Program-made: the position numbers and the translations under genes | In this document: positions 2,819 to 58,337 of the stretch, piece after piece | Layout: the number at the start of each line of letters is the position of its first letter | Position numbering within the stretch: the stretch's first letter is position 1 | NCBI GenBank assembly: GCA_905178155.1 | Contig: CAJINV010000003.1 | Coordinates: 7,859,882-7,923,881 of the forward strand | Length of the DNA: 64,000 nt | From: Amoebophrya sp. A120 | Lineage: Eukaryota; Protista; Dinoflagellata | Direction of reading: 5' to 3' | Notes under the pieces: generated by a model | Told to the model about the DNA's origin: nothing | Seen by the model: the letters and a program-made list of their open reading frames with translations, nothing else | Databases searched by the model: none

Positions 2819-5800
2819 TTACACAGGATACGCGTACGACGGGGCCACGTAGGCTAGAATGTAGAGAATCACGTCTGCCCGAACCAGTGGATTGCGCACG
2901 TGCGCGGCTTGGGCCAAAGCCAGCCAGTAGCGACGCTCGGCGCTTTGGTTGAAAAGCCGCCGAAGCAGCGCATACATGGTCGGAAAGAGTAGTCTAGTCA
3001 CAGCAATGCTGGTCTCGTCGGTCCAAAACGCTAACGCGCTGCTGGGTGATCCAAAGAGGAACGCACTACTTCTCCATGCTGGGTTGTAGTCTGGGGGCAC
3101 GGCTTCTGGACCTCGCCCAAACCAGGAGGCCGCATTCAGAGCTGCAGCGGCCACGCCATGGTCGCTGCCCTTGGTCAGTTGCCGGTCTTCCGCAAGAAGG
3201 GCCCACACTGTAGTCGCAAGCTCCGGTATGCGTGCCAAGAGCAGAAGAAAGAGCAGAGGATCGCGGCACAGGAGAAAGAGGAGCAGGGTGAAGCAGGCTG
3301 GGTTCAACCCAACCAGGACGACGGCGCCAACCAGTAGTATGGGCACCACGTCGCTTCTCAGAAAGGGCAAAAGCTGCAAGTCCACTTCCGCTGTCAGCGA
3401 GTCAACATATAAAGCTTGCGGCGTGTTGGTGTTCGTCTTCTCCAAGTGGATAGTTCCTTGTTCGTCTTGCTCCTTTCCCATTTTCGCTGGCTCATCCTCA
3501 TCCTCTACGGAGCTCGCGCACCGCTTTTGACTTGCAGATGATGCACTCTTCGAAGACAGTGGTGCTGAAGGTCCTACCTGCCGTGCCGCAGCCTCCGACC
3601 TACGCTCTGCAGCTTCCAACGACCATACCAGCCTTCTCCCATGGGTGCTATGCATTGCAAACGTACAGCTCAGGCAGTACTTACCGGACGAAATTCTGTT
3701 GCAGTCGCTTCAATCGGATTTACAAGTTTTTCCAAGTACAACGTTGCATAATTCTGCTCCTTCGTTACGTACTTCTAAATACTTATTTCATTCGTCAGAC
3801 ACAGAGAGAGCTGCTCTTCAGTCTTGCAGTCGTGCTGTAAGGTCCTCGCATACAATGGTACCTTTGCGAAGGATACGTACCAGGAGAGGTTGCTGTGCCC
3901 GCGTCGTCTGGTGCGGTGGCGGCTTGAGTTTCCGACTTCGCTGCGCTAGGACGTCGGGAGGAGCAGCTGCAATATCTCCTTCCAGCGCAGCAACCTAGTC
4001 GTCCTCTTAAGCAATTGTTTGTGGCCTCGAACAGTAAGAAGAAAAAGAGAGCAATGCCAAGCCCCAGAATAGACAGCAGGTACAGTAGTAGAAGATTGTA
4101 ATCCTTCTCGATGTCGGCGTAAGCGAAGCCACGCGGGCTGCGTTTGTGAGAAGAGTGCCGCGCACTTTCGTTGTCGAGCGCCACAACTTCCTGTCGAAGC
4201 AACGTAGCCAGTGCAGTCCGCGCCTTGGCGAGCATCGCGGCACCGGGTGCTTCCGGATCTGGGGCCATGAACGGACTGGAGAGGAGATAGAGTGCCCAAG
4301 TGAAGGTTGCGAATTCTGGAACAATTGTGAGCAGAAAACGGCTGCCCTGTCGCGCGAGCAGATTGTATGTAAACGGCTGGAAACCCGGGAGCCGTGCGAG
4401 CAGGAAGAGAGCCCCCGCGACCAACGAGCCCAGGAGGTACGGAACGTACACCCGGAAAATTTGCTTCAGACACGCCAGCAAGTTCCCTTTTGCGTACACT
4501 GCTTTACCCCGCTCCAGCTGCATGAAAGCGAGAAACACGGAGTTCCGACCGAGCCCCGGTGCGCTGATGGATCTGGTTTCTTGTCCGCTACCTCGTCCAT
4601 GTGCTGCACCAGCAGAACTCGTTCGCATGGCAACATCCTCCACGTTCCAACTTCGAGGGAGAACGGCCGCAAAAGCAGAAGACGCAATCCAGTCGAGTCC
4701 GAAGGGTGATAAAAACTGTGCACAGCTGCGGCGCAGCACGATAAGGAACCGCCACATCTGAGAATCAGGCACGGTTCTTTCTGGCCCCATTGCTGTGCTC
4801 TCGCCTGAAAACCCGCCGATGGAGCCTTTGCGCTGTGTTCTGCGACGGTGCTCATCGAGCGCTTCTTGCAGTTCCTTCTCGTCCGCCGGGGAAAAGAAAT
4901 CCTTCAAGTGAATTTTGCCGGAGGTGGCTGCCAGTTTTTCTGCATTCACGGCGGTATCTCCTCCCTTCCGCCGAAAAATTTCCTGGGCCTTGGCTTGCAC
5001 AATCCGCTGCTCCTCCTCATCGAATTCGCCTTGAGGCGAGGATTGCTGGTCTGCCGACGCGAAGAAAATGACGGGCTCCCCGCGGCTGGCGCGGCAGTGT
5101 GCCGCGAGGGAGAAACGCGGGCTCCATACTCGCGGATGGCTTTCTGCGTCCAACAGACCGAGGTTATTTCGCCAACTGCTTTTCGTGAGACCAGCGGTAC
5201 CAGCCGAGCCGAGGCGCCCGACCGAAGCCAAGTCACCGGAGCTGTCCCACGCGAGGCCGAGGCCCTCCGAGGTGGCGTCGTCCAGAGGGCCCTGGCCCGC
5301 CCCAAAGTCCGAAGAGGCAGCGGAACTCGTCGCGTGGTCCAATTCTTGCGGTTGTTCCGAGGCAGCCGTGAAAAAATCGAAGGAAAAGAGTTCGTAGTCT
5401 AACTCATCCTTCGATAGCACCACCCAGGTAAATAACGAAGTCGAGTCCGCCGGAATCACCTCCAGGGGCACGACCAACGAAGATACCCAGTCCCACAAAG
5501 TTAGCGATCGGAGGCGATTCAACCCCCAAGTTTCTCGGTGCGCCGCGAATCCACGAATCTGAAATTTCGAAGGGTTAGAGGCTGAGGATGCAGCGGCTGA
5601 GATCTTCGCGGACCCCTTCATATTTACTTCACCTCTCCCATCCTCCACTTCTTCGTCGATTTTCCCGCCGAAATCTTCATGATCCTCACGACCCACATCA
5701 TGCCCATCGTCCGAGAGATGAAATAGCTGCTCGTCATTCGTTTCGACCGCTCTTTTCTTTCCTCTGCTGTTATTCCGAGCTTTTGTTTCCTGTGTCGCGA

Positions 5801-7709: not shown

Positions 7710-8185
7710 TTTTTTTCAATTCGGGTGCCAAGAATTGTTCGCCCACGTACGAACGATGGCAAATAAATCTACATCTTTCAGCGGACAAGGATGCATCCGC
7801 GTTGTCGTCGTGGAGAACATGAAAGGTCAGTATTATATTGCAATTGCTAGCACTTCTGACGTTATTAAAGTAACGTAACTTAGCATCGGGAAGATCGACG
7901 ACGTGGACGTGCTACAAATGAAACAATGAACAGAGACATAGAAGTCGATCATGATCATCAGGGCATAGAGAGTATCAAAAAGCAAAAGTGCAGAGACTGA
8001 GAGGTAAAGTCACCGGCATGTCGAACACACAGGTATCATCCCGAACTGCATATGAGAGATGGTACCGCGGAGGTCGGGTATTTCGGCCACTTGCTTCTCC
8101 TGCATGCGTTTGCGTTTTCGATCACGTTACTACGCACGGGCAAAAGAAGCAGAACAGCACTCCTGACGCCCCCCGGTCTTTGTGC

Positions 8186-11100
8186 CTAAATTCGATGCTG
8201 ATAGGAGCCTGCCTTGGTGATGTAGCGAATCCACTTGACAGGGCGGTAGTTGCTTTTTTCCTGCACGCGCAGAAATCTTACCCGCAACCCTGTCGCTGTG
8301 AACATGGGCACCTGAAAGTCCATGCTGATCGGGGGTCGCACCCACTTCGTCGCGGTGCTCGCTCCAACCTGAGCAGTTCCGGGACCGCCTGCGGGTGCCG
8401 CACTCAGGGGCAACCCCGTCGTTAGATCGTCGCTGCTAAGTTCCACTTCGGCAGACAGCGTGTTTTCGGTGTTGCCGGGAAGCCTATGAAAAATAAAAAA
8501 TCCCCCTCTTCCCATGTACATATTGAAACTGGAAACTCTTGTTCTGATGCAGTAGATTTGTGCACACAAACGAAATCATGTTGTCTTCCAGGATTGCATC
8601 ATCTTGAGCGGATGCTACTAACTTAAGTAAAACTACTGCGTAAGAACTAGTAGAGTTCTAGCTGTTCGGCACCATGGCGGTAGATTCCTCACCTGCACTT
8701 ACTACTTAAGTGCCTTTTTGACCATGGCGGGTACTAAGTAGGGGGATAATAATTTTTCCTCATGATAAAACCGGCGTATCCGCCAGACTAGGTCGCTCTG
8801 TTCGTGCTTGGCTTTGCCGTTGGTGGCGGAGTGTACCATAACCCGGGTGGTGGACTTGGGTACCGGGATGGTAAGCACCACGTTTGTGGCGTAACAGTTT
8901 GCGTCGAACAGCGACTTCACCTTCAGCGAAACCTCGAGCCTATTCCGCCCCCGCTCTTGTACGAGCGGAAGGAGCTTGAAGGGGCACTGGATGTTTTCCG
9001 TGATCCGGTACTGCATCAATTCAAACGTGCCGTCGGGCGGAATAAAGGTGATGGTTTTCTCGGTGTCATACTTGCTCAGCCGCACACACTGATGGAAGCG
9101 ACAGTCGTCCATCACGATCTGACCTTGTTGACTCGTCTTGACGCCGCCACTTGCCCCGCCGGCCGCTGCCTGCCCGCCGAGTACCAACTTGTCGTTCATC
9201 CCAAACTTACCTTGTTGACGAGTATAATGTATTGCCTTCATCCGTCATCTCATGCTTCCAATCTAGAAGTGCTGAGAAGGAGAACCACAACAGCTTGATA
9301 CTTACTATGGGACGAACAAGCAAAAGGTAATAAGTACATTCGGGCATTCCGCTGAGCAGGGCTTTCACCATGATCTGTCCGGAAACATCGGCCCGGAGAA
9401 GTGTACCGGAATTGCTTAGCAAGACATTCACGGACTCGATCACGTCAATATAGACTTCGTTTTTCCTGGAACAAGATTTGGATTTTTCACTTCCTTATGT
9501 ACATCGTAACACTACTTCTGAGATCTTCATCTTTTTCCACATACGGCCATGTCACGAGTTACGTTGAAGATGATGTTGAAACTACACGTTTTATCTCTCC
9601 ATCACACACTACAGGAGCAAAAATATCACAATTTCGTCAGACACACACACACAGTGCAGTAATAGTTGTTCATGCTCATGCAGGAGCAGAAAGAATAAGA
9701 AACCATAACAATTACATAATATATTAATTTAGACTACCCATGTTTGACCCACGAGCAACCCATGAGGAACCCACCAGACCCACCACCGACCCACCAACGA
9801 CCCACCAGCGACCCACCAACGACCCACCACCTAACCCACCTTTGACCCATGGATACCAATGCGGAAATGGGATTTGCGGTGGTACCCCCGGGGGTGGGTC
9901 CCTGGTACCCCGGGAGGTGGTCTGCGGTACCCCTCGCCGTGGGTTTGATGGACAACCTCCGGCGAGGTCGCACAACATCCGGCGACGCTGCTTCCTTGGG
10001 GCGGGCGGGACCTTGGTGCCGCGACTCGAGGCACCAAGCCAAGCCCCGCTGGCTGCCGGGAGGGTGCGAGGGACGGGTGGGACCGTGGTGCCGAGAGTCA
10101 CGGCGCCAAGCACGCCCCGGGGGCGAGGGGTGGATCAATGGGACCTTGGTGCCGCGACTCGAGGCACCAGGCCAAGCCCTGCTGCCGGGAGGGGGCGAGA
10201 GACGGATGGGACCGTGGTGCCGCGAGTCACGGCACCAAGCTTGTTTTGGGGGTGTGGGGTGGATCGATGGGACCTTTGTGCTGCGACTCGAGGCACCTAT
10301 CCAAGTCCCGCTGCCGGGACGGAGGGGGCGAGAGGCGAATGGGACCGTGGTGCCGCGAGTCACGGCACCAAGCATGCCCCGCTGCTTCCTTGGGGCGGGC
10401 GAGACCTTGGTGCCGCGACTCGAGGCACCAAGCCAAGCCCCGCGGGCTGCCGGGAGGGTGCGAGGGACGGGTGGGACCGTGACGCCGCGAGTCACGGCAC
10501 CAAGCACGCCCCGGGGGTGAGGGGTGGATCGATGGGACCTTGGTGCCGCGACTCGAGGCACCAGGCCAAGCCCTGCTGCCGGTAGGGGGCGAAAGACGGA
10601 TGGGACCGTGGTGCCGCGACTCACGGCACCAAGCACGCCCCGCGGCTTGAGGCGGGTGGGACCTTGGTGCCGCGACTCGAGGCACCAAGCCAAGCCCCGC
10701 TGGCTGCCGGGAGGGTGCGAGGGGCGGGTGGGACCGTGGTTCCGCGAGTCACGGCACCAAGCACGCCCCGGGGACGGGGGGTGGATGGATGGGACCTTGG
10801 TCCCGCGACTCACGGCACCAAGCACGCCCCGCTGCTTGAGGCGAGTGGGACCTTGGTGCCGCGACTCGAGGCACCAACCAAGCCAAGCCCCGGTGGCTGC
10901 CGGGAGGGTGCGAGGGACGGCGACGGGTGGGACCGTGGTGCCGCGAGTCACGGCACCAAGCACGCCCCGGGGACGAGGGGTGGATCGATGGGACCTTGGT
11001 GCCGTGACTCGAGGCACCAAGCCAAGCCCCGCTGCCGGGACGGAGGGGGCGAGAGACGAATGGGACCGTGGTGCCGCGACTCACGGCAGCAAGCACGCCC

Positions 11101-18490: not shown

Positions 18491-21278
18491 TTACTTCGGC
18501 GTGAAAGTTAAGTCCCGCTGCTGTGCAAAGTCCTGCATATGCCTATCCACAAACGGATTCGCTTCGTCCTGATCCATATCCGCAAAACAGTGATTGACGT
18601 CCCGATGATGCGTCTCGTCGGCCAGCAACTGAAGATGTGAAGATGAGAATAAATACATGAAAAATCAATCTTGTTTCAGTGCATAGAAATGGACTCTTTA
18701 CGACTTGGGAACAGTAAAACGAATTATGCAGTATAAGATTTTTAAATCATTATGATACGTTCTCGAGCACGTGCACCCACTCCGCGTCATCCCTCAGGTT
18801 CCAGTACGCCTTGGCCAAAGGCGGCGCCGGGAGGCCGTCCCAAGCCTTGTGCAGTTTGGTGCCCGGAGTTCTCGTCAGCCGAACCAAGTCCGTGTACGTA
18901 AGCACTGCCGTTTCTTCCAGGTACCCGACAAATCGGTGGAGGGCTTTGGGATGGACCTAAGGAAATATAGAGTGGCTGATTTTCCTAGGAGTGAGAGTGC
19001 AGTTCTTGCCTGGCGCGGCAATCGACCATTGACCGTCAGACATCTCTGGGTAGTGGTCGTGTCAACATAAGCACAAACTTATGGTCGTTATGTCGGTGCA
19101 CTGACTCTCGTCGTTGCAATAGCAAGCCACGAAGATGCCTGTGTCTCTCGAAACTCAATTGGTGGAAAAATCTATCTTTGCTACACACAGGACTCTTATC
19201 TTCTCGCAACAAATTGTATCTGCGTACCATATAAGTGGCAGTGAGGAAGGTCACGATTCCGATCTGCCCAAGCGCACAAGCGGTGCGGGTCAGGATTCCG
19301 GCATCGAACATCTTCATGCAAACAAGCAGGTGCATGCGTTTTTGTATCGCAGGAAAAACACTGGCATGTCCACGTGGCGCTGTATTGCGTCGAATGCAAG
19401 AAGACAGTAGAATGCATCCCAATCTCGATGTCCTGATGACAAAGACGCAAGAAAAGGCAAAACATTCATACAGCAGCGTTTGCGCAATCCCGATGGGGTC
19501 ACGCTCACAACGCGCTGGGCATGACCTAATTCGCGATGCAAACTACGCAACATTTTCGTCACAGTGAAAAAACAGGCTGCTTTTCTCTGCGATATCATTC
19601 TGGGCCTCTTCGATGAGTGTGTGAATCCAGCCGTGGTCTCTGCGCAAGGTGCGCAACGAATGAAAATGCCGTAGCACTCCTGCAACCATTCCGGGGACCT
19701 GTTATGTTTGTTTATGCATAACTTTGTGTCAGAAGAGTGCGATACAATTTTCAGCACGGTCTTGCTGGGATAGTATTCGTATTGGCAAGTCGGTAAAAAA
19801 CAACTATATGCGTTCCTCGTTGGCTCCCAAACAAACGAAGCCACGCCGGAGCTTTTCATCTAAGTATCTTTAATGTTATGCGTTGTACTGCGAAGTCCGA
19901 GAAATAAGTAAAAGTTGCGCGTGTCAGTCAAGCTGTACCCCTGCGATTGATTCCAGGATGATGAGCCGGTAGGCACAGGATCGCGGCGTAGGGTCCTTGT
20001 AGTCGAAGCCCGTGAGATATCCACTGCAAATATGTCTAGGTTCTCTGGGAGGATGCAGGTATTTGCGATGCAGACTTTTCATGCCCATCGAGGTCTGGAA
20101 TGAGTGACCTACTTAGCATCCCAGATTGCCGCAAGACTTTTACTTTACAACGTTTATCCCGCAAAAAAGAAGCTACACTCTGTGTCACAAGAAGAAAGAA
20201 AAGCAAAGGGCAGCTTTTCCTATTATACATTGATGTGATCTACAGGGGGCGTCACAAATTTGCGGTCTTGTTCCAGACCCACACACATTTACAATGCGTA
20301 TGACGAAGTTGAATCCCCGATACAGCACGGTCTTCACGAGGTGGTACATGAACTTGTCCGCCAAGGTATCCTGTGTAAAAACGTCTCCATCCCATGTTTG
20401 TCATGCAAATCTGTTTCTGTATGACTCAAATGCTTCTCATGCGCAGCGACGCAAGAGGCGTTTTCTAATCTTGTCTGGGAGTTGGTGATGCTAGAATCAG
20501 GAGAATCTGGGCCATTTCTGATGCGGCAACACTATCTAAAAACGATTGCACTACGATCCGAAATTTGTCGTACACGACAACAGCCAAAATTTGTTGAATT
20601 GTGTAGCCAAAGTCACACCTTGACTGTGGGGAGGTGGAGACGTTTCTGTACAGGATACCAGGTTTTAGGCACATGCACAGGCTGGGGCTTCTCCAGCCGA
20701 GCACGAATCTCCTCCTCGCTCCAAATGTGGTTCACCATTGGTATCATGTACGTTTGTTTATCATAAAAGTGGGAGTTTGTCCGCAGCATGCTGTTCTCCG
20801 TACTGCCCGTTTGCTCTTCCACGGCCGTAGAAGCAGTGGCGGCAGTACTGGTATCGACCGAGGGCGTTTTTGCGAAGTTGGTGTTCGTTGTCGGCTCCGG
20901 ACTTTTTCCCTTGTCGCGTGGAATGTGAAATCCGCCGAGTTTCGGGTGCAGCTCTCCGCCTTTACCTCGGGTGTCGTCTGTTTGTGAAGCAACACAGAAA
21001 AACTGTAAACTGAGAAGTGCAACAGCCTAGAGGACTTTCTGTTGAAAAGTACTTGTTGTGCGCTGTCAACATTGTTCAGAGCGGACCCACACGACATCGA
21101 GATCGACATGAAGTACCACTTATTATTAAACAAACTACTTACTTAGAAAGATAGGTCCGTGCTTACCTGTTTGCTTCGACACCGGGAACTGCTGCGCGAA
21201 GGACCTCGTGAAGAGTGGTCTCATTTGAGACGGTCTCCGTAAAGCCTGAGCACCACGACCAACGGCAAGGCGCATCAT
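18491..21278 (-). CDS. AOX: Mitochondrial alternative oxidase, 8 exons (4 GT-AG and 3 non-canonical introns)
   Basis: Spliced model gives [47 protein letters not shown], plus an Arg-rich N-terminal presequence. Not visible as a long ORF in the track. Confidence 0.92.
19345..19594. mobile_element. TIR intron element splitting AOX N-E-R-M-H
   Basis: Ends tatcgcaggaaaaaca / revcomp tatcgcagagaaaagca. Flanks AATGA/CAAAA. Removing element+5 nt gives AAT GAA CGC ATG CAC. Confidence 0.9.
20018..20300. mobile_element. Degenerate TIR intron element in AOX
   Basis: Ends tatccactgcaaatatgt / revcomp tacgcattgtaaatgtgt. Flanks CGTCA/TCTCA. Removal restores GFNFVTGFDYK. Confidence 0.8.
20367..20657. mobile_element. 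TIR intron element (TATCCTG family) in AOX
   Basis: Ends tatcctgtgtaaaaacgtctcca / revcomp tatcctgtacagaaacgtctcca. Flanks CCTGG/CCTTG. Removal restores PKT(W/L)ADKF. Confidence 0.9.
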
Positions 21279-30274: not shown

Positions 30275-30367
30275 CCCCTCCTCAATCGCTGCGGCGGTGG
30301 TGCTAATCTGGATAGCGTCCTACCACACTCCCCTCCTGAGCGCGCTGTGGTGAACTAGCTATCCCCT

Positions 30368-35380: not shown

Positions 35381-35425
35381 TTATCTGACTATAAGAGCCA
35401 GTTTGAGTCTCAAGGCGTAACGTAG

Positions 35426-38738: not shown

Positions 38739-39185
38739 GCCGCGTACTGCCACTGCGGCTTGGAAGACCAGCCACAAAGACCGCCTGACGTAAATATCCT
38801 AAATAGAGATATTTCTGGGCTGCAGCCCCTGGCACAACACGAAGTTATAAATATTTTCCGTCTGCTAAATATTTCGAGCACGCCTTCCTCTCCCTATCCC
38901 TCAACGAGGTTGCTTCTGCGGTGCCGACGTAAGTACTTAGTGTCGCTACAGAAAACCATCGATCAAGAGCATGCGGCGCGCCCTTGTGAAATCGCGATCT
39001 TCAGGAGCACGGTGTAGTGCAACACAAGTATTGCGTCGTGTCAGCCTCCGCCATAGAACACGCCCGGTAGGAAAATCAGTTGTGTATGTTTCATTCCCCG
39101 CTTTATTTTCATCGGAGGTTCTCGTAATAGCTACTGTCGTGATGGTATGTTGCGAGGTGAAAGTCAAAGTATATCGATGATCTTA

Positions 39186-41309: not shown

Positions 41310-41415
41310 GTTCGTAATGTCTTTGGTGCGTCCACCGCCAATCACTAGCACCCCCTGCGTCTGAAGAGTAGCACTGCACGGCTGCAACGAAGTGCGCTGG
41401 AACGGGTTTCCGCCA

Positions 41416-42202
41416 CTATAACTCCTTCGAAGCCGCTGGTGTGCCTGTTCGGTCCAGGGCTCCAGGAAAACCGACGACAAGCACCATGTAAGCCAAGCCG
41501 AGTGTCGCAAACAAAGCGATGTTCAGATTTACAGTAAAAGAAGTGCATGCTTTTAAGTAAGTATTTTAGGCAGATGATTACTCGACGTGGCCTGTGCTTG
41601 AAGTTGAAGGGATGCAGCACTTTCTGATTTAGGTCAATATACCCGTCTTTTCCCCTTGTGCGTAACGATTAGACGCAGAAGAGGGGGGGGCGGGACACCA
41701 GAGAAGTCCGGGTCCCAGTTTAGAAGCGATTTGCGCTGCAGACTCTTCATGTTGCGGCTTTGCAACAAGAGAAATGACAACATCGAATGACAATGTGGAA
41801 AACTACCGCACCTGAACAGGAAACGCACACACTTCACTTCCATATCAGAGGGTGCCAGTCATTCCACCGCCCTCTCGTGTGTGCGTACACGCCTGCTGCC
41901 ACGGCTATCGCGAAGGAAAGTATAAACACTCGCGCAATATACAGTCGCGCTTTCGGATCCAAATACAGCGAGCTGGCCGCAAAAAACGCAAATCCGAAAA
42001 TGAACGGGGCCGACCAGCGTATGCAATCGGCGGTGATGGATTCTGCTGGAATGTTGGATTTACTGAACAGGGAAAACATCTCCGGTTTCACAAATGCCAC
42101 CATTGCGAACGTAAACGCAGAAGCAGCATGCATAGCCACGAAGGCGTCGGCGTAGAATGCCGCACCAGCGACTTCAAAGGGACGAGAGACAAATGCCATC
42201 AT
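41416..42202 (-). CDS. Small multi-TM membrane protein, 2 exons
   Basis: ORF 41834..42202 continues as WHPL|NIALFATLGLAYMVLVVGFPG...KEL* after removing 41523..41844. Confidence 0.7.
41528..41844. mobile_element. Degenerate TIR intron element
   Basis: Perfect 5-bp repeat TCTGA on both sides, weak inverted ends, internal ATGACAA x2, no GT-AG. Confidence 0.75.
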
Positions 42203-43121: not shown

Positions 43122-45167
43122 CTACCTGGTGGATGGCGCCCGCAATCCGACCCGAAGTTCGTGCTCCTGGGGAAGAATATCCTCGTAGGAAACGAAGATT
43201 CATTCTGTGTAAAAACTCTCTATACAAGCCGAATCGACCACGCGTTACGCGCAAACGAATGCAGCACACGCAAACCACACGCTCGTCATGCATTTTCGCA
43301 TGCAGCTATCCACCCGAGCCACTTTCCAGCTACGTTACTTTAGAATTAGATAGAAACTTGCTATGGTCTCTTCAGAACACGATAGATGACGCAGACATGG
43401 TAACTGACCGCAACTAGGACTATTCTATGCTGTCACGCAGAACTCCTATCACTTGTTGATCTGAACAGCAAAACCCCCGTGGTCGTGCTTTTGAACGTAG
43501 GAACGTTTTTACACAGGGTAGCTCTGTTGCCGTAGCAAGGGTTCGGTTTTGTTCCTGGAGCGCCGACCGGCAAACGCCTCGGCCGCTTCCATGGTCGAGT
43601 AGTGTCCAACCGCATTGCATGGTCGGCGAATGAGGCGCATTCTGGCACATCGCAGCCGTGTAGTGATCTCGGCACAGGTCGTAAGTGGGCTCGCCCCTGC
43701 AACCTTTTCCCGGATGAAGCGAGCATCGAGGAAAAAGCTCATTGCACTGTGATTATCAAATGAAAAAAAGCAAAATGAAGCAGACAGCGACGTTGGCGTA
43801 GTTCCTGCACTGCAAAGAAAGTATATGCAGTAAAAAACAATGGATGCTTGCACAGTGCTGCAGAAGCAGACCAAAAAATTTTTAGTTTTAGGCATGCACA
43901 GCACAGCCATTTGCAGGGAAGTATCATCTTAATACTATATCGACCCCGTTCTGTCTGTTCATCCCTTTTCTTTGTTTTGCATACTGAGTGCGTGGTCGCC
44001 TGACGGCATTCCTTATCGAGAATGACGGCCGGATCTGGTGTTTGTTGTCCGGGGAGGTTCCAATGTACTGATGAGCGTCATGCTCTCAAACTCTGTCTGC
44101 AATACCACGTACGCAGAGAGTGAAGCGTTCTTTTTGCATCAAACAAAGATGATAGATTATGATGGGATGATCTATCACGCAAAGCAAATAGGGCACTTAC
44201 CTCGTTTCGCCTGGTTGATGCAACGGCTTCCCGTCCACAGACACGCCCCCGCGCAGCCCGCTTCCTGTGTGTTGCGACCGCAGAAATCCTGATGGCACTC
44301 TTCTTATCGTAAGGAAAAATCCCCCCTCCCCATATCAAAAAGAAGTTTCTGATGTTGGATTTGGGTACACAAATCAGGTCTGTCTTGCAGAAAGTGCTTG
44401 GCGGCATTTTGTAAGCCTGTTTGAATGTGCAGAAGGCTAGCAATAAGGCATGACAAACAGGTTTGCAGTAGTCAAAAGCGAATGACAGACTGGCTGTGGA
44501 ATGCGCCACATTGCTCCCATTACCCTATAGGCAAGACAGAGGGTATTTGTGACCACAAATCAGCATGACAAATTTCCTTTTCGATATGGGGAGGGGGGAT
44601 TTTTCCTTTTGATACTTCTTCGGGCTTCTTGACGGCCTCTGTCGCGTAAAAGCCCTCGGGATCCGCCACGTCTTTGGCGGAGAACACGCACTGCTCGTGC
44701 TATGCAATACAAATTTCCTGTACATGTACAAAATGCATCACAAATTTCACCAATTTGGGGCGTAACACTTGTCATGCTAAACTAGGATCGAAGCCCAATT
44801 TTGTCATGCAAAAACCGCATTTTTACGTGTACGGGAAATTTACTGTGGATACGTGCGCATTACACACTACACGTCCTTCCCCGGTCAGCACGGAACAGAG
44901 GTCGTCAACATAAGCGTCGGAGGACTCAGCTTCACGGTCAGAAGATCTCACTGTGTTCAGAGCTAGCGGCTTCATGCCCACTGTTATTCTAGAAAGCAGA
45001 ACTATCCTCGCGCCGGTACCAGCAGAACGGCGTGAACAACCTGATGCTGCTGGGCAGCTGCAACTGGACTTAGCTGAGAAAGCCTGAAAAAACGGAGAAG
45101 GCCGCTGGTGCCTCTTCCTCTGCTCCCAAGCGGCCCGCTCCCTCGCCCTTGCGAACGTCGCTACCAT
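43122..45167 (-). CDS. Cys-rich repeat protein, multi-exon (partly reconstructed)
   Basis: Splicing out three TIR elements yields modules DLCSVLTGEGRVVCNAHEQCVF, DFCGRNTQEAGCAGACLWTGSRC and DLCRDHYTAAMCQ...CGW...GVC. Start and two junctions unresolved. Confidence 0.6.
43201..43520. mobile_element. TIR intron element (TATCCTG family, degenerate)
   Basis: Ends cattctgtgtaaaaact / revcomp taccctgtgtaaaaacgt. Flanks AGAGC/AATCT. Element+5 nt removal keeps the frame. Confidence 0.7.
44305..44614. mobile_element. TIR intron element (TATCAAAAGGAAAAAT family)
   Basis: About 35-bp TIR tatc..aaggaaaaatcccccctccccatatc, perfect TSD cttct. Homologous along its length to 53545..53865. Confidence 0.93.
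44701..44851. mobile_element. Short TIR intron element
   Basis: About 35-bp TIR (aaatttcc.gtaca.gta.aaaatgc), perfect TSD cgtgc, two internal ttgtcatgc. Confidence 0.9.
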
Positions 45168-48284: not shown

Positions 48285-51065
48285 CTATTTGTCTTTTTTC
48301 GCAGTAAGTTCCACGGCGGCAGCATCAGCGTCGATCGCCTTGAGACGTTCCAGCAGAGTAAAGAAATCCCGGAAAAAAACTCCAGCACAATCACGGTCAT
48401 TTGATGCAAGCATGATGAAACAATCGTAGTTTTGTCAGATCTGGATCTGTTGAAATAATCGAAAATTTTTCAGAACGTCCAACTCAGTTCCAGTCACGAG
48501 CAGTACAAGAGGAGTGTACTCCATTATTCTGCTAAAGCCAGGAGGACCGGGTCGAGATATGCAAAGCTAGCATGCTTTTGATGTCAACACTCCATCAGTC
48601 TTTTACTCTCTCTGGTTTTATCCTGAATATAGATGCAAAACAAGCTCGTAGACACTGTGAGGCCTTAGAAGTTTTTTTCTCTTCCGTAAGGATGGGAAAG
48701 GTTGTACCACGCCCAGAGCGGATCCTCGTTGAACCCGCTCTTGTTGTCATCCGCGAGCTTGATCAAGCCCTGCTTGAGCCCGGGGCCGCGGTTCAGCTCC
48801 ACGTTGGCGAAACGGTCCGCCTGAAACTCGAAGACCCGGGTGAGGCAGGTCATCGCGCGGTCCAGGACCGTGTCCAGCGGCTCCAGGAGCATGCTGATCA
48901 GCATCACCCCCATCATCTTGCTGTGCAACGCGTGCTGCATGCCAAAGGAGGCAAAAATCGCCGCGCTCTCGGGCGAGTAGAGCACCATGCCGATGATGTA
49001 AAACACGCAGAACAGCTGCACGCTGCCGATCACCAGGTTCCAGAGCGTGTGGCCCTTCTTCCAGTGCCCCAGCTCGTGCCCCAGAATCGCGAGGATCGCG
49101 TCATGCGGCAAGTGCAGCAGCGTGTCGTACAAAACGATGCGCCGATACTTCCAAATGCCGAAGAAAAACGCGTTGCTGTGCGCGGACCGCGTGCTGCCGT
49201 CCATTTGAAAAATCTTGTAGAGCGGAAAAGACAGCGAACCGGCAAGATCCTCGATCTTGGTTTTTAGCTCCGCGTCTTTGATGGGCTCATACGTGTTGAA
49301 CCGTGATGCAAGGAAATAAATTGGTGATCCTCATTAATATAGTGCGGGCCCCAAGTAGTTGTAAACTTCGTACTACAGAGTTTTTCATTGTCATGTCTTT
49401 CTGTCATTTCTCTTCGCATATAATGCTGCTACTTGTCTACATTTATCTGTCTTCCACCTGCTCGCACGACATGGGCCAGAACCAGGATTACCATTTCTTT
49501 TCCTTTCGTAAAAGTGGCATGATGTAATTTGGCACCAACCACATCATAAAAACACCAAAAACCTGATGTGCGTATATTCATTTGATGGTGGGACTTCTTT
49601 TTAAAGTTAGTAGGGCGTGCTAGCTTTCTTCACACAGCTTAATATAATCCCATGGAGCTGCAACCAAACAAATCAATCTAGATGTGATGCTGCTAAGTAA
49701 TCATTCATCCCGTTCCCGCCCGTCGTTGTGAGGAAGAGGAACTATAAAGAATTTTGAGAAAAGACATTAATTGACAGCAAGTACACACCTGCAGGAAGGC
49801 CCAGAGGTAGATGTAGAAAAGCTCGCCCGCGTAGTGGACCAAGTGGATCAGCACTGGTATGAGTAAAAGGGTAAAAACCGTGGACAGCAGCTCGGACTTA
49901 AGCAGGTCGGAAACAAAGAGCTATCACATTGAAAAATGCCCTCACCCAAAAAAGTGGGCGCTTTTGTGTAGCGAAAGTTCCCCATGTAAACACGACCTGC
50001 CATCTTGCATGTATATAAGTAAGTCTGTGCTGCTGCACGAGAGAGCCGCCACAGTATAAGCAATGTCTGTTTCGATTATGTTGAAGTTGCGTATGCATAT
50101 CTGAGTCATCTGACTTTGATTCGGAAATTGCCTCGCGCTCACATTTGCAACATTTCCTTCATGCAATACAAAAAGTTTCCGTGTGGACGAAAGAAGTTTG
50201 GAATGCAAACTGTTTAGTCGGACTGCACTTTTCAATATGATAAGAGCCGCATGGTCTTCTTGTTGAACCCATGCTTTTCTTCGAGCACGAAATCGCTGTA
50301 CAGGCTGGTGACCAGTCCCAGGGGTAGGTCGATGTAGTGCGTAAGAAAGTGAAAGACCAAAAACTCGGGCACCTCCCGGGACGCGCCAGTGGAAGTGCTG
50401 TCCGTGAAGTTACTATCAAACGCAAGTATGGCCTCGTGTCTGGAAGAACGCAGATGTTCGTCATGCTCATACACACTTTGCATACTAGCCCATCATGATC
50501 ACTTCTGTGCTGCATGCTCTACGACCATCACAGATTTTTTGAGGGCCTCTTGATGCCTATCCCGCATGAGAAATGCCCTGCTCTCCGCTTAGCAACCCTT
50601 GGAGAAGCCTCTTGCTGATCTTGCAATTTTTACACAGGATTTTTATAAAATAATCCAGAGGCAGTGCCAGAAGTTGCACTTTATTACCCGACCCAGACAT
50701 ACTTGCAATGCATACTTCCACTGCTCCGCCAGCTCCATGCTGGTGCGCCACACCCACGGCTTCACGCGCAGCAGCATCACGAGCCCGATCAAAAAGTTTA
50801 TCCAGCTGCACACCATACCGAACACGCGCTTGTCGTAGTTGTACTGCCGCGCCTTCTCGAACTTCTCGTACGCCTTCTCCTTGTCCTTCTCGTCCAAGAT
50901 CCCGTACGAGAAAACCTCCGGTGGGATGGTCTTCTTGCGGTCCTGTCGGAGTTGCCGCCATTCTAGATATTCCTCAATCACATGCAGGCCAGCGGAGAAC
51001 ACCAGGTACAGACGCAGGTAGTCGAAGAGTTCGGAGGGCATGGTGGAAGGAGCTGCGCCCATCAT
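48285..51065 (-). CDS. STE24: CAAX prenyl protease 1 (peptidase M48), 6 exons
   Basis: EEKHGFNKKT, PLFN, DGSTRSAHSNAFFFG, RIVLYDTL, LGHELGHW, EFQAD, SHPTLLERL. One GT-AG and four TIR-type introns. Confidence 0.93.
48365..48688. mobile_element. Degenerate TIR intron element in STE24 (SHP|TLLERL)
   Basis: Both ends carry gaaaaaaact in inverted orientation. Intron 48360..48688 reads TA...TT with no AG. Confidence 0.7.
49305..49510. mobile_element. TIR intron element in STE24 (PLF|N)
   Basis: gatgcaaggaaataaattggtgatcc vs revcomp tacgaaaggaaaagaaatggtaatcc. Flanks ACTTT/ACGGT. Confidence 0.85.
49922..50242. mobile_element. TIR intron element in STE24
   Basis: tatcacattgaaaaatgc / revcomp tatcatattgaaaagtgc, perfect TSD agagc. 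Removal restores MRLFVSDLLK. Confidence 0.92.
50414..50714. mobile_element. TIR intron element in STE24
   Basis: tatcaaacgcaagtatg / revcomp tatgcattgcaagtatg. Flanks GGAAG/GTAAC. Confidence 0.78.
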
Positions 51066-52614: not shown

Positions 52615-55600
52615 CTACCGCTTTTTGCCGTGCCGAAAAACGACGTTGCCCTGCGGTTGCCGCTGCTCTTCCGGTAGCACGTTTTGGCTCAGGTAATTTC
52701 CCGCATCTTTTTTGTTTTGTTTGGGCTGCGAGTGCATGGAAAAAACGTCATCCTGGTGAGAATTCATCGCCGCCTGCAGCGTCCGGCGCTTCAGCAGGTC
52801 CTCCTCCTCTTTTTTTCTGGTCGCAATCTGCGTGTGCTATCCTGAGTAAAAACGTCCCCTCCCCATCCTCGAGTTGGGAACTCTGCAAGAAAAAACAAAC
52901 AAATGATCTTTGCCGTGGCACAGGACAAGAACAGTCGGCCCGTAGTATGATCCTCTTGAGGTAGTGCAGCCGCATGAGAAATCGAGAAGCTTATCCTGAT
53001 TGTAGCATGACAAGCTCCCAAATCATAGCACGTAGAAAATGCCTCGCATGTCGTGGCTGCGCATGAAACAAGTAAAACGTGTCACGCATGCAGTTATGCA
53101 TGATAACTCTGGGATGGGAGCATGTAGTTCGCTCAGGATATTTGCTGTGAAATGTTGAGCAGGCAGGCTTGCGAAAGCATGTTGTCCTCCGGCACGTGTA
53201 TCACCTTGGGCTCGCGCTTTGGACCACCCGGCTGGTTTGCGCTGCGGGACAGCACTTTGAAATCCAGAAACCCCGGACGCGACTGCTGGGTGCCGCCCGA
53301 CGCCGGCGCGGCCCCCGGCGTCACCTTCGAAAAACTGCCACTCGTACTAGACGCCGCGGACGAGGAAACCTCGGCCCCCGCGGTGCGCAAACTATTCATC
53401 GTGTTTCGGCCTCCAACATTTTGGGCGTGTCGGTGCCGCTTCACGTCCTCGATTCCTGCGTTTGTCATCGCCAAAATTTCTTGGTCCATTGCGACCTGCA
53501 TCAGGTCAGCCTCGGACATCTGCGGCTCTGCGGGCGCCGGCGGATATCAAAAGGAAAAATCCCTCCTCCCCATATCAAAACGCAGTTTCTGACGCTGGAC
53601 TTGCGTACACAAATCAGATTTGTCTTGCTGTAGAGGACTGCAGGCCTATGCTGAGCCTGAGTAGCGAGGTTTTGGGCTAGGTGCCGAGTATGGCAAAGGT
53701 CTACTCTGTAGGGGCGACAGCATGACAAACCGCCCGCAGAATGCAGCGGAGTCTGAGGAGTTGCGTTCTTGCAAGACAGAGACGATTTGTGGCCACAAAT
53801 CAGCATTGCAAATTTTCTGAGACGTACCTTTTCGATATGGGGAGGGGGGATTTTTCCTTTTGATAGCGGAAGCCCGAGGTTTTGGTCCTCGTCCGTGTCG
53901 GTGTACTCGTCCGTGCTATCGTCCTCGTCTTCCTCGCTGGACGACGACTCGCTGTCGCTGGGACTGCCCGAGGACGAGGGCGAACCGCCATCCGCCTTCC
54001 GCGCGTCCTTCGCTTCGGCCGCCTCGATGGCTTTCTCCGACGCCTGCCGCACGGTTAGCAAATCGTGCTTCAGAATCTTCAACACATCGGTATCCGCCTT
54101 CAGCGCGTCTCCGATCGGCTCCTGCACCAGTTCCAGCGAATCCTCCACGGCATTCAAGGCGCGAATCGTAAGCATTTCCGGCCGGACCAGCGCAAACCGC
54201 CGGAAGAACACGCAAAACTTCTGCATCTTGATCTGTTTTGAGAGGGGATTTTTCACAGCAAACATCTTTTGCTATCAGCCCCCGGTGACCACCTCGAGCA
54301 TCATCTTCAGGATCGAACGAACGAGTAAAAGTAAAATAGCAAACCTCCAAAAAACAATTAATGAAATATTTCGCGATGCTGAATCGACACACAATTTACT
54401 TTTGTTTCAGCTTCCGCAGCTGTCACATCACCGGGCGGCCAGTGATGCCAGCGAAGAACGATGAAGATTTCTTGTCTACGATATTGAATACCTTAGCCGC
54501 GCCAGCTTTGAAGAAGTGGCCAATTGAGTCGAGCAGGACGCAAACCTGGCGCAGGCGGAAGGTGTCGGCGAAGTCCGCGCCGACGTGATCTGGGTGGTGG
54601 ATGCCGTGGGGCCACAGCCAGAACTTCGAGAATTCGTGCCAGAGCTCGTAGTCCTTTTCGAAAAAATCCAGGGCCCGCGCCACCGCGTCGATGTTGTCGT
54701 TGTTCGGAAGGTTGGGGAATTCCGTGGCGAGCATCTGCACGTAGGTTGGTTTCGAACGGTTCCGGCGGCTGAACCGCTGGCTCTTCTTGTCCACCTTCCC
54801 GTTCCCGTCCGCAGTAGACGCATTAGTTTCGTCCGCCGGAGAGGGGCGGTTCCGCTTCGGCTCCGTCCGGACGTAGTCTTCCCACACCGCGAGGATGCGT
54901 TGGCCAAACAGGTCGTAGAGCCGAGTGAGGTGGGAAGCCCGGTAGCTGGTGGCGCCGCCCCACCCGATCAGCTGGTAGAGCACGTCGAAGACCACCTGCG
55001 AGTCGACCAGGCGGAAGGCGTAGAACTCCCCCAGCAGCTTCAGCTGCCGTGTGCGGAGCGGCTGGTCGCGGAAGTCCGCCTTCTCCAGGCCCAGCTGGAT
55101 CTCCTCCAGCAGCGTGTCCACGCAGTCCAGCGTGAAGTCCTCCCGGTACTCACTGAGGTCCTTCAAAAAGTGCGCCACGCACCACAGGTGCTCGTAGTCG
55201 GCGTGCAGATTCAGGTCCAGCAGTCCGCGCTTCAGCCAGACCTCCACCTTGGACGCCTCCTCCTTGTACACGCACCCCGTCTTCACGCGCAGCTTGGCGC
55301 CGCTCTTCCGCGTCGCACGAATCGTGGACCACGGCAGCTGCAGCACCAGGTGCACCGCGGAGTGGACGTCGTCTGCGATGTAGATGTAGGTGGAGCACAA
55401 CCACATAATCAAGCGCTCGATCTCGCTCTTTTTCATTTGCCCCTCCTTGTCGGCCAGTTCGCGCTTCTTGTTCTCCGGCGGTTTCAGCTGATAATACCTG
55501 TGGCGGAAGGGAACTAGATAGAAAACCACTCACCCCGACATTTCTCTTTTGCGTCATCATGGGGTGAACATACCAAGTAAAACTACCGTGATGTTGATAC

Positions 55601-58337
55601 TATGTAAACGTCGAAAAAATCGAAATTCTTCTTCACATGGCTCGAATTAATAAACAAATTGAACGTATTGACATAAACGATACGCGTCATCAATGGCCAT
55701 TTCGTCGCGCAGGTCGAGTCCCTTTTTGTGATTTTTCAGGCGCATCATCCGCTCGAGAAGATTCTCGAACCGGAGTTTCGTCTCCTGGGTGTGCAGCAGC
55801 CAGCGGCCGCAGTGCTCGAGCAGGCAGCAGGAAGTGGACACTTCGTGAAAGTCGTCCAGAATCTGCGAAAAGGTGTCCAGAATTATACCCGGCGGACAGA
55901 GCCGGAACTTCACGAGCTCCGCCAAGAACTTGATGTTGCGCTGTTTCCGCTCCATTACGACCGGGTCTGGGCTCTTGTCGGGTAAAACCAGGTCGCGCTC
56001 CTTCAGCAGGTCTTTTGTGACCATGTCCGCCACGTCCCGGAAGTAGGGGTTCACGGTGGCGAGCCACCGGCAGTGGAAAGGAATGTAAGCACTGTGGATC
56101 CGCTTCACCCGGGACAGCACCGTGGCGATGCGCCGCCGGCACGCCTAAAGGTTTTATTTTAGGGTTTTTTAACTGAACAACATTTATTCGCGTCACTTGT
56201 ATATTAAACATTTCATGCATAGTACCCGACTGCACCTCAGAAACTCCGTTGCCGCAAGCAGCTTCGGACGCAGGAGATCTAGACCCAGAACCGCGAAAGA
56301 CCACATCGCGAGTATTTCATGCCGTAAGGCTAAATTTGCGACGAAAAAATGAAATTGCGCACTACAATGAAAAAACACCTTGCTGCTCCAGTCGTGGGCG
56401 AAGGTCATCGCGAGTTCGTTCAGCCGGTCGATCCGGTCGCTACTGGCGAGCTTGTCCAGGAACACCTCAAACTTCCCGGTGTCCATTTCCGTGGTGCGCT
56501 CCAGGTGCTGCGTCCGTTCGTCCTTGGGCGCGAGCCCCAGGTACTTCTCGGGCACCACGTCCTTCAGGTCGAGTAGGTCTTCGTACATTTTTGCTTCGGT
56601 GGAATCCAGATACCGGAGGTCGGGGTTCACGCCGCTCGGGTGGTGGTCCCCCCCGTCGTGGTCTTTTCTGGAGGACGAGGACGCCCCGGCACCCTCCGGT
56701 GCGCCGCCCCCCGCCGCAGCGGTGCCCCCGCCAATGGTGGTGGTCGTCTCCTCCTCGCGTTTCTGGGCGGCCGTCTTGTAGTCCGGCATGTCCAGGTCGA
56801 GGCTCTCCGCGAGCGACTGCAGGTGCTTCTCGAGCGTGGCCTTGTGCTCCTTGAACCGCGTCAGCTTCCCGTCCCACTCCGCGTCCACCACGCCCTTGTC
56901 GATCATCATCGCGTCATTCAACCGCTGCTGCTCGAGCACGTGCTGGTTCGCGTGGGCCAGCCCCCGGCCCCCGGCTTTCTCATATCCTGAGTAAAAACGT
57001 AGCCACACCAGAGTCAGGATGGGGATTTTGCAACACAAACCTAGGAGCTTTTTGAGCCACGCATGACAAGTTTCAGTCCGTAAGGTAGTGCAAGTTAGCA
57101 AGGAAAGCCGCATCACAAATCGACCTTCTGATCCTCTTTACAGCATTACAAGTTCCCAAACACGATTGAAAATGCCTGTCATGGGGTTGCGCATCACAAA
57201 TGTTCCTGTCATGGCAAATCTGCATGACAACTCTGGGGTGGGTACGTTTTTACTCAGGATATCTCAAACACCGACTTGATCGCATACGCCAGCGTCGATT
57301 GCGTCGTGTCGTTCAGCACGCACAAGCGAGTGCGTTTCCACCTGATGTGCAAAAAGCGTCAGTAGAGGTGCAAAAAACTTTTGCAGTCGAGGAGGTCTGG
57401 TTGCAGTAGGTACAACCCGCCGCTGTGCACCAGAAACTACCGTACGCCCCGGGCTGGGTCACTTACTGCGACACTGGAAAACTCTTGATTCTAAACAAGA
57501 TTGTTAGTGTGTTACGTCGAATGACGAAAAGCAAAAGGTAGAAGGTCGTTGAAAAACTAATACAAGAAAAGCTGTGCCGGCAAGCGTTAACACGCGAGTC
57601 TTCTTCAGAACGCCCTTCTTCTATCTAGTATTAGCAAAAATGCGGAAGAACAAGCACAATGCAATAGGCTTCGAAAAACAATACTCGCGGCCGATCCCTT
57701 CTTCCATTTCGCGCTGCGTTTTGGACAAAACACCTGTGCATGCAAGCCCCTGTTTCTGCATCACCGAGGCCAGGATGGCGAACGCGTTGCAGAGCTGTTC
57801 GTCATCTTCGCCCTTGTCGCATGCCGTGCACACGTCCTGCAGGAAGATGGCAAAGATGCGCTCGGGTACGATTTTCAGCAGCGCCAGTTCTCCGGCGAGC
57901 CGGCAGTAGACGCGGCGGCGCGGAAACAGGTCCTTGCTGAAGCTCGCCTGGCCCCAGGCTTTCTGGAGGCTTTTTTCCAGCGACCCCGCGAAATTTTCGG
58001 CCTGGTACCCCGCGTGGAGGTGCGCGAAAAGCTCCACAACGGCGGGCAGATCCTTCAACTTGAAGGCGCCCGTGGTCACGCACTCCACGAAGCACTCCGA
58101 CAGCTCCTCCACGTATTTGCCCAGGTCCAGGCTGTCCAGGTCCTTTTTCAGCGAGGCGAGGTCGTTCGTGGTGAACTTCTTCAATTTGTTCTGGAACTTC
58201 TGGATTTTCGGGATGCTCTTGTCCTTCCCGCGCTTGTTCTTCTCCAGCTGTGACCAGCCGAACCGCGCCTCCTCCTCCTGCTTCTCCGCCCGCCATTTCG
58301 CCTCCCACTCCTTGTTCACCTCCGACTTGCCCGCCAT
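52615..58337 (-). CDS. UPF2: Regulator of nonsense transcripts 2 (MIF4G domains), 8 exons
   Basis: KDLDSLDLGKYVEE, NIKFLAELVKFRLCP, CLLEHCGRWL, LKLLGEFYAFRL, FRLRQVCVLLDSIGHFF, acidic tail. Four GT-AG and three TIR introns. Confidence 0.9.
52838..53140. mobile_element. TIR intron element (TATCCTG family) in UPF2
   Basis: tatcctgagtaaaaacgt / revcomp tatcctgagcgaactac. Flanks GCAAA/GCACA. Confidence 0.87.
53545..53865. mobile_element. TIR intron element (TATCAAAAGGAAAAAT family) in UPF2
   Basis: 32-bp near-perfect TIR, perfect TSD gcgga. Removal restores GLPPAPAEPQM. Confidence 0.95.
56983..57261. mobile_element. TIR intron element (TATCCTG family) in UPF2
   Basis: TIR tatcctgagtaaaaacgta.ccac.ccagagt, perfect TSD tctca. 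Removal restores SVFEKAGGRG. Confidence 0.95.

What the first reader, a model, noticed from the sequence alone, without database searches (positions are those of the whole stretch)
3649..57261. Multi-family system of TIR/5-bp-TSD elements acting as non-GT-AG introns (16 copies in 7 genes)
Seen: 16 elements of about 150-325 bp, mostly ending TAY...RTA with inverted termini and a 5-bp flanking duplication. All lie inside CDS of PGAP1-like, AP2M1, AOX (3), a TM gene, a Cys-rich gene (3), STE24 (4) and UPF2 (3). In every case removing element+5 nt restores the frame, including core motifs (AOX NERMHL, STE24 SHPTLLERL). At least two families recur (TATCCTG x4, TATCAAAAGG x3) and the others are distinct. 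Known: MITE-like introners and inverted-repeat non-canonical introns are reported in Amoebophrya, but how they are excised is unresolved. Inference: these are transposon-derived introns removed by a non-standard mechanism.
Basis: partly seen in the sequence, partly recalled or inferred. Interest (0 to 1): 0.88.

Follow-up and report, generated by a model that had tools for sequence, protein, structure and literature searches.

The report
Amoebophrya transposon introns, fixed cut position
These are the already published transposon-like introns of the marine parasite Amoebophrya A120; likely RNA assemblies and gene models lack each element plus five bases, and the only cut that fits them all lies one base before and four bases after the element, likely made by a relaxed spliceosome that passes over nearby GT-AG signals.

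Summary
The window is Amoebophrya sp. A120. The elements are real and are the introner elements of Farhat et al. 2021 (PMC7789003), so the system is already known. Only 6 of the 17 keep a perfect 5-bp duplication, and 13 of 17 have exact TAY...RTA ends. All 19 are removed as element+5 nt in likely-RNA contigs (12; 4 as listed joints, 8 from piece ends and lengths) or in public gene models (7). Decayed duplications fix the cut: the intron starts 1 nt before TAY and ends 4 nt after the element. In three places a canonical AG or GT-AG option is not used. Farhat's Table S4 fits: all 9 top A120 non-canonical types start NT. In 85 oriented copies from a metagenome assembly, G at +1 and AG at the end are not enriched, and both orientations occur. 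A relaxed spliceosome is likely (about 0.55); a separate Euglena-like machinery stays open (about 0.3). I did not find the fixed register in the papers searched. This scan reported it before on other pieces of this genome.

The parts
   Evidence: joint 505>773 skips 267 = 262+5 in X6; registers 0/-1
   Evidence: joint 2373>2832 skips 458 in X5 and X6; excludes register 0
3649..3875 (-). introner in PGAP1-like gene; intron GT..AC; an AG at +1 is not used
   Evidence: joint 3644>3877 skips 232 in X4 and X6; registers -1 to -3
8485..8767 (-). introner in AP2M1; an in-frame GT-AG alternative (-4/+1) is not used
   Evidence: joint 8479>8768 skips 288 in X6; registers 0 to -2
19345..19594 (-). introner splitting AOX NERMHL
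   Evidence: removed in gene model P0001; registers 0/-1
20018..20300 (-). introner in AOX
   Evidence: P0001, gap 288
20367..20657 (-). introner in AOX, TATCCTG family
   Evidence: P0001, gap 296; registers 0/-1
41528..41844 (-). introner in small TM gene; perfect 5-bp duplication, decayed 3' repeat
   Evidence: removal reproduces gene model P0060
43201..43520 (-). introner in Cys-rich gene, duplication 1/5
   Evidence: X6 contig piece ends at 43196, the +4 position; the far side is not listed; gene model P0059 instead reads into this element
43754..43983 (-). introner in Cys-rich gene
   Evidence: P0059, gap 235; registers -1 to -4
44305..44614 (-). introner in Cys-rich gene, TATCAAAAGG family
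   Evidence: P0059, gap 315
44701..44851 (-). introner in Cys-rich gene, 151 bp
   Evidence: P0059, gap 156
48365..48688 (-). introner splitting STE24 SHPTLLERL, duplication 1/5
   Evidence: X6 record 11 piece starts at 48689; contig length 1910 equals the model
49305..49510 (-). introner in STE24
   Evidence: record 11 piece ends at 49298; inner length 348 = 348
49922..50242 (-). introner in STE24, perfect duplication
   Evidence: contig length only
50414..50714 (-). introner in STE24; intron GT..AA; an in-frame pyrimidine-CAG 30 nt upstream of the used 3' site is skipped
   Evidence: record 11 piece starts at 50716; 1910 fits, 1940 would be needed for the AG
52838..53140 (-). introner in UPF2
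   Evidence: record 12 piece ends at 52832; inner length 766 = 766
53545..53865 (-). introner in UPF2, TATCAAAAGG family, 16/16 TIR
   Evidence: contig length only
56983..57261 (-). introner in UPF2, young TATCCTG family copy, 16/16 TIR
   Evidence: record 13 piece ends at 56977; the far side is not listed; up to 96% identical copies elsewhere

Best explanation
These are likely non-autonomous cut-and-paste DNA transposons with TAT...ATA inverted ends and 5-bp target duplications; likely-RNA contigs and gene models lack exactly element+5 nt, the one cut that fits every case lies 1 nt before the TAY end and 4 nt after the other end, and a relaxed, U1-independent spliceosome likely makes it by measuring from the element's ends. 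Shown: the anatomy, removal of element+5, and the bypass of available AG or GT-AG sites. Inferred with good support (about 0.85): one fixed register, exon|N-UAY...RUA-NNNN|exon. The mRNA keeps bases 1-4 of the upstream duplicate and base 5 of the downstream one, so the original site is restored whatever its sequence and in either orientation. Inferred more weakly (about 0.55): the element's first T serves as the usual intron +2 U, and the 3' site is set by distance rather than by AG. The guide could be the paired ends, a protein bound to the end motifs, or an adenosine at -7 acting as branch point. The mover is inferred to be a DDE transposase elsewhere in the genome; none lies in this window.
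For: Joints listed: skips of 267, 458, 232 and 288 nt, each element+5. STE24 contig: 9 T plus the model gives 1910 nt, as observed; the upstream AG would give 1940. UPF2 inner length 766 = 766. The allowed registers of 12 junctions intersect only at -1, and all 7 elements reproduced by gene models allow -1. Farhat Table S4: all 9 predominant A120 non-canonical types are NT-NN and all 9 for A25 are TT-NN, so +2 is T throughout. In the -1/+4 register a target ending AGG gives a perfect GT-AG intron, and Farhat reports the same repeat organisation in 15% of canonical A120 introns. Farhat found 83 of 89 spliceosomal proteins but no U1; Amoebophrya sp. Kv has U1 and mostly GT-AG introns. In the window +2 T is 19/19 while its pairing partner (-5 A) is 15/19, and -7 A is 19/19 while its partner (+4 T) is 15/19. 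The 3649-3875 element is cut in register with almost no predicted end pairing (2.4 expected pairs). Canonical and element introns share transcripts.
Against: No lariat, branch point or snRNA dependence was tested. The end asymmetry is not significant (Fisher p = 0.105 each), and the 85 younger metagenome copies do not add to it. There is no sign that the machinery prefers canonical letters: G at +1 27/85 against 0.30 background (p = 0.72), AG at the end 9/85 against 0.063 (p = 0.12). A drift towards G at +1 seen in the window (4 of 5 position-5 mismatches) is not repeated there (2 of 6). The ends are predicted to pair in 17 of 19 elements, which fits a hairpin-guided non-spliceosomal route equally well. 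The RNA label of X3-X6 is the tool's guess; they are contigs from one study, and the gene models may rest on the same data. For 8 of the 12 junctions the far side was inferred from lengths or from the model. The strand of the 511-772 gene is assumed. Gene model P0059 does not remove 43201-43520.
Confidence: 0.55

Rival explanations
1. Same elements and same -1/+4 register, but cut by a separate non-spliceosomal system (a structure-guided endonuclease plus ligase, or a dedicated complex) that reads the paired ends, convergent with Euglena nonconventional introns.
For: 17 of 19 elements have predicted end-to-end pairing (at least 16.9 expected pairs, against at most 11.9 in 10 canonical introns). 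Canonical AG sites are ignored in three cases. There is no G or AG enrichment. Euglena uses a spacer rule around a paired motif, and its authors favour distinct factors (PMC12501133).
Against: T at +2 is constant in both strains although their repeats differ. The register coincides with GT-AG when the target ends AGG. Two spliced elements have weak predicted end pairing.
Confidence: 0.3
2. Removal is real, but the cut position varies within the duplication from element to element, and the common register is a coincidence of few cases.
For: Farhat describes splice sites as variable, 1-5 nt from the repeats. Gozashti's family tables list mixed GT, GC, GA, AT and other donors. Only 43201-43520 alone pins -1, and its far side is inferred.
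Against: Six junctions with listed joints or piece ends allow 0/-1 (or +1 to -1 or 0 to -2), four exclude 0, and none excludes -1. Perfect duplications make aligner placement arbitrary, which would explain the published spread (inference).
Confidence: 0.08
3. The joins are reverse-transcriptase template switches at hairpins flanked by direct repeats, and the true mRNA keeps the elements.
For: A hairpin plus direct repeat is the known substrate for such artefacts (my own knowledge). All transcript evidence here is cDNA-derived contigs.
Against: Joins occur where only 1 of 5 duplicated bases still matches (48365-48688, 43201-43520). They keep the upstream copy, not the downstream copy that the enzyme would copy first. 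Unspliced forms break AOX NERMHL, STE24, AP2M1 and UPF2.
Confidence: 0.04
4. The elements are removed at DNA level in some cells, or these loci are dead pseudogenes.
For: Only the 15 best of 155 joints were shown, so a rare joined form in DNA is not excluded.
Against: X1 contigs run through five STE24 and UPF2 elements with no other letters (records 3 and 4). A poly(T)-ended contig equals the spliced STE24 model. The 100%-identical database proteins lie on this genome.
Confidence: 0.03

Closest known systems
Introner elements among non-canonical introns of Amoebophrya sp. A120 (Farhat et al. 2021, PMC7789003; Gozashti et al. 2025, PMC12130899)
   Same: Same organism; repeats starting TAT, seven freer bases, then AAA; 3-5 nt direct repeats (5 bp in their Fig. 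S19 legend); many families; non-GT-AG borders; mixed with canonical introns; no transposase inside.
   Different: The paper leaves the borders variable or unknown (1-5 nt from the repeats) and sees no clear splice signature. Here one register, -1/+4 with T at +2, fits all cases, and canonical alternatives are bypassed.
Euglena nonconventional introns (PMC12501133; review PMC11282704)
   Same: Probably MITE-derived, paired ends, duplication-like repeats, cut at set spacer lengths from a paired motif, coexisting with GT-AG introns.
   Different: The Euglena code is N3-CDG...CH'G-N5-6|R; here it is N1-TAY...RTA-N4 with no purine rule seen. Euglena introns come out as circles; the product here is untested. 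The lineages are unrelated.
Micromonas and Aureococcus introners (as summarised in PMC11282704 and PMC7789003)
   Same: Non-autonomous TIR transposons with target duplications that become introns, part of the duplicate lying inside the intron.
   Different: They carry or co-opt canonical splice dinucleotides; these need neither G at +1 nor AG.
hAT5 and IS3EU/GingerRoot DNA transposons (PMC12730594, PMC10045372)
   Same: hAT5 makes 5-bp duplications; IS3EU/GingerRoot end in TA..TA (TAYGG..CCRTA in rust fungi).
   Different: IS3EU/GingerRoot usually make 6-bp duplications. hAT5 termini were not given in the passages I read. No transposase is in the window to test either.
Fritillaria borealis non-canonical introns (bioRxiv 10.1101/2025.08.15.670264; PMC11282704)
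   Same: Transposon-derived non-GT-AG introns handled by a modified major spliceosome: a precedent for the preferred mechanism.
   Different: They keep preferred termini (AG-AC, AG-AT) and U1, with duplicated U2AF; here only +2 is fixed.

Membership tests
Amoebophrya A120 introner elements (Farhat 2021) | Located in the A120 genome | tested here: met
   three exons 100% identical to proteins named Amoebophrya sp. A120
Amoebophrya A120 introner elements (Farhat 2021) | 8-20 nt inverted repeats starting TAT with an A run after seven bases | tested here: met
   8-16 of 16 terminal matches in the 18 of these elements scored; the TM element's 3' repeat is decayed
Amoebophrya A120 introner elements (Farhat 2021) | 3-5 nt direct repeat at the borders | tested here: met
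   perfect 5 bp in 6 of 17 in range and at least 3/5 in 14 of 17; 71 of 95 perfect in family copies
Amoebophrya A120 introner elements (Farhat 2021) | Removed from transcripts at non-GT-AG sites | tested here: met
   (likely-RNA contigs, one study) and gene models
Amoebophrya A120 introner elements (Farhat 2021) | Repeated in the genome | tested here: inconclusive
   6 of 19 have interior matches among 182 metagenome copies chosen around one family; DNA depth is very high over several; the other 13 could not be tested without the genome
MITE / non-autonomous TIR DNA transposon | Short, non-coding, TIRs, fixed-length target duplication of varied sequence | tested here: met
   151-453 bp; duplication length peaks at 5 (71 perfect, against 9 at k=2, 1 at k=3, 1 at k=8); both orientations 22:8
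MITE / non-autonomous TIR DNA transposon | Cognate transposase and empty sites in other strains | not testable with these tools
   no whole genome held; no transposase among 30 window frames scanned except a Copia reverse transcriptase
IS3EU/GingerRoot | TA..TA ends and 6-bp duplication | tested here: not met
   ends fit, but the duplication is 5 bp (0 perfect at k=6; definition)
hAT5 | 5-bp duplication and hAT-type transposase | tested here: inconclusive
   5 bp met; transposase not in the window; suggested only by unchecked scan notes
Canonical U2 spliceosomal intron | GT (GC) and AG termini | tested here: not met
   0 of 19 are GT-AG in the -1/+4 register; 1 of 19 in any register, and that one is unused
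Canonical U2 spliceosomal intron | Lariat with 2'-5' branch; U2/U6 dependence | not testable with these tools
   only contigs cover the window; raw-read runs X9 and X10 gave 2 and 20 reads
Euglena nonconventional intron | N3-CDG...CH'G-N5-6|R signature | tested here: not met
   the conserved ends are TAY at +2 to +4 and an A at -7; signature

The most novel reading that the evidence does not exclude
A120 runs a second splicing code, exon|N-UAY...RUA-NNNN|exon, executed by machinery that is not the ordinary spliceosome and that reads the transposon's own ends as a ruler. Any TAT-ended, 5-bp-duplicating transposon would then be erased from the mRNA wherever it lands and in either orientation, even in preference to good GT-AG sites. 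It would be an invention parallel to, and independent of, Euglena's.
Probability: 0.3. Interest if true: 0.85.

Novelty: already known. Interest (0 to 1): 0.5.

Why it matters
The element class is published for this genome, but how about two thirds of its introns are removed is an open question. A fixed -1/+4 register turns 'variable borders' into a rule that can be tested by spacer and point mutants, lariat sequencing and spliceosome inhibition. It explains why insertion into exons is nearly harmless: the target site is restored base for base. It would also correct gene models such as P0059. The three bypassed canonical sites (AP2M1, STE24, PGAP1-like) are ready-made test substrates. I did not find the register in the papers returned by my searches. 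Figures of PMC7789003 (Fig. 3, S19-S25) and Roy et al. 2023 (Curr Biol, seen only as a reference) were not readable and could already show it.

Tried and rejected
No whole genome is held, and the metagenome records are not searchable as genomes, so there was no genome-wide count, transposase search or empty-site test. No listed holder is on record as RNA. In one search the DNA run filled the joint table (15 of 155 rows shown, none a splice joint), so those junctions rest on piece ends and lengths. The loose TAY...RTA plus 5-mer pattern is at chance, as is a TA...TA scan at 10/16 or better (593 seen against 482). A stop-free frame test on 40 metagenome copies was weak (26 of 40 for +5 and +8; 18-20 for the other offsets; 3 unspliced). 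A codon-model version gave 7 of 7 for keeping one duplicate, but 37 of 44 clean copies were dropped as not confidently framed. Drift towards G at +1 was rejected as unsupported (2 of 6). A candidate element at 41906-42221 was rejected: it lies in the coding exon of P0060. No match in viral contigs. Of 134 metagenome loci, 18 not from JACKZZ01 were dropped; 3 of them gave weak pairs with 1-2/5 duplication. No Rfam match in the window. PMC6004678 gave no passage for hAT5.


Full report
Identity. Three exons match database proteins named Amoebophrya sp. A120 at 100%. Pfam confirms PGAP1, AP2M1, CRAL-TRIO, STE24 (peptidase M48), two MIF4G pieces of the UPF2-like gene, a dual-specificity phosphatase, exostosin and a Copia reverse transcriptase among 30 frames. 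All are on the minus strand. No whole genome is held.

Observation. Lengths are 151-324 bp in range, and 453 bp for 2378-2830. The 5-bp duplication is perfect in 6 of 17 and matches 4/5 in 3, 3/5 in 5, 2/5 in 1 and 1/5 in 2. Exact TAY...RTA ends occur in 13 of 17. The bare end-plus-5-mer pattern is at chance (14 against 13.0). Pairs with at least 10/16 repeat and 3/5 duplication matches number 14 against 0.9 (maximum 3 in 40 simulations). Removing element+5 opens AP2M1 (469 aa), the PGAP1-like frame (1597 aa, against 1306 unspliced) and STE24 (461 aa).

Removal. Eleven runs were listed, none on record as RNA among the holders. X3-X6 hold 0.63-0.65 of the words and are guessed to be RNA; they are contigs from one study. 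On 200-9600 they show five joints: four skip element+5 (267, 458, 232, 288 nt) and one is a GT-AG intron. On 40500-58500 the joint table was filled by the DNA run, so I used piece ends and lengths. The STE24 contig is 1910 nt, equal to 9 T plus the model with four elements and one canonical intron removed. The UPF2 contig has 766 nt between two pieces, equal to the model. Two further elements are supported by one piece end each. Gene models remove the three AOX elements (P0001), three Cys-rich elements (P0059) and the TM element (P0060). P0059 reads into 43201-43520, which the contig appears to skip. These models may derive from the same RNA data. DNA contigs run unbroken through five elements, and depth rises from about 27 to as much as 69,000 in bins with young elements; the tool warns that this is not a copy number.

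Cut position. Where the two duplicates differ, the transcript shows which copy it keeps. The three listed joints in genes of known strand allow -1 or -2 together. The STE24 48365-48688 and UPF2 52838-53140 junctions, and two AOX junctions in the gene model, allow 0 or -1. All 12 RNA-supported junctions intersect only at -1, and the 7 elements reproduced by gene models all allow it. The intron is therefore N-TAY...RTA-NNNN: one base of the upstream duplicate, the element, and four bases of the downstream duplicate. None of the 19 is GT-AG in this register. Three canonical options are passed over. In AP2M1 an in-frame GT-AG at -4/+1 is unused. In the PGAP1-like gene an AG at +1 is unused. In STE24 a GT donor is joined to an AA end although a pyrimidine tract and CAG lie in frame 30 nt upstream (1910 observed, 1940 required). 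Farhat's Table S4 independently shows T at +2 in all 9 leading A120 and all 9 leading A25 non-canonical types.

Wider sample. Its copies are up to 96% identical to the UPF2 element. I did not establish whether it is A120 itself or a relative. Of 145 end matches, 95 paired uniquely; 71 have a perfect and 16 a 4/5 five-base duplication of varied sequence. Of 182 elements found in these loci, 85 could be oriented by a codon model trained on the window. G at +1 (27/85) and AG at the end (9/85) are not enriched, 1 of 85 is GT-AG, and the family lies both ways in genes, 22 against 8. Seven of 7 confidently framed cases keep exactly one duplicate; 37 of 44 were dropped. A subterminal motif (GCAT-G/T/C-ACAA) is the commonest interior 9-mer; its CAT[CG]ACAA form is absent from 15.7 kb of window coding sequence. 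It may be a transposase-binding site (inference; lead from note e1-10628275).

Mechanism. The mobility step is inferred from anatomy: inverted ends, a fixed-length random duplication, both orientations. The ends resemble IS3EU/GingerRoot (TA..TA, but 6 bp), and the duplication length matches hAT5. No transposase is in the window. For excision I favour a relaxed spliceosome (0.55). The fixed +2 U is the base the spliceosome normally keeps. The register collapses to GT-AG when the target ends AGG. Most spliceosomal proteins are present and U1 was not found, whereas strain Kv has U1 and mostly canonical introns. One element is cut in register with almost no predicted end pairing. In old copies +2 T and -7 A are invariant (19/19 each) while their pairing partners vary (15/19 each). 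This hints at sequence reading, with a possible branch adenosine (lead from note e1-10600586), but p = 0.105 for each and the younger metagenome copies add nothing. Against the spliceosome: there is no preference for G or AG, good AG sites are ignored, and 17 of 19 elements are predicted to pair their ends, as a Euglena-like dedicated system would need (0.3). Template switching is unlikely because joins persist with 1/5 identity and keep the upstream copy.

Literature seen. PMC7789003: abstract, passages, sections 11, 12 and 16, supplement legends and Table S4 rows; figures not held. PMC12130899: passages, and 22 of 58 A120 rows of supplement file 8; files 13-14 not searched. PMC12501133: abstract and discussion. 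PMC12005148, PMC11282704, PMC10045372, PMC12730594 and bioRxiv 10.1101/2025.08.15.670264: passages only. Roy et al. 2023: reference listing only. Farhat describes these elements in this genome, including the TAT-N7-AAA repeat and 5-bp direct repeats, but leaves the borders variable or unknown. Searches returned no paper stating a fixed register; the unseen figures could.

Verdict. The added value is the -1/+4 rule and three bypassed canonical sites, which make the open splicing question testable. I had reached the register before opening the scan's notes; several unreviewed notes report the same on other pieces of this genome, which is not independent evidence. Interest 0.5.

Noticed in passing
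window:29748-35953: Full-length Copia-type LTR retrotransposon with TG...CA ends, two near-identical LTRs of about 530 bp, a perfect 5-bp target duplication and long open gag and pol frames separated by one stop. It looks recent.
   Followed up: partly
window:9730-12480: A GC-rich (about 72%) palindromic tandem array with nested periods of about 56-68, 133 and 257 bp, inside a 3.0-kb GT-AG intron of AP2M1. A loose contig end at 9467 continues into the upstream exon, so the intron appears spliced.
   Followed up: partly
window:13444-13895: Candidate introner (452 bp, TAT ends, perfect 5-bp duplication) between the 14087-15094 frame and AP2M1, probably in a UTR; not tested against RNA.
   Followed up: no
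   Followed up: no
window:43201-43520: The public gene model P0059 reads into this element and stops, whereas a likely-RNA contig resumes at 43196; the model's C-terminus is probably wrong.
   Followed up: partly
window:18629-18758, 19696-19935, 54233-54491, 55498-55680: Several canonical GT-AG introns begin G-TAY, as an element in the -1 register would; some may be old elements that became canonical.
   Followed up: no
L001-L134 (JACKZZ01 records): A public metagenome assembly carries the same element families; elements make up about 48 of 120 kb in the fetched loci. It could supply empty-site comparisons if it is a different strain.
   Followed up: partly
window:52423-58338: UPF2, a nonsense-mediated-decay factor, itself carries three of these elements; failed removal of any of them (each +2 frame) would shift its frame.
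   Followed up: no
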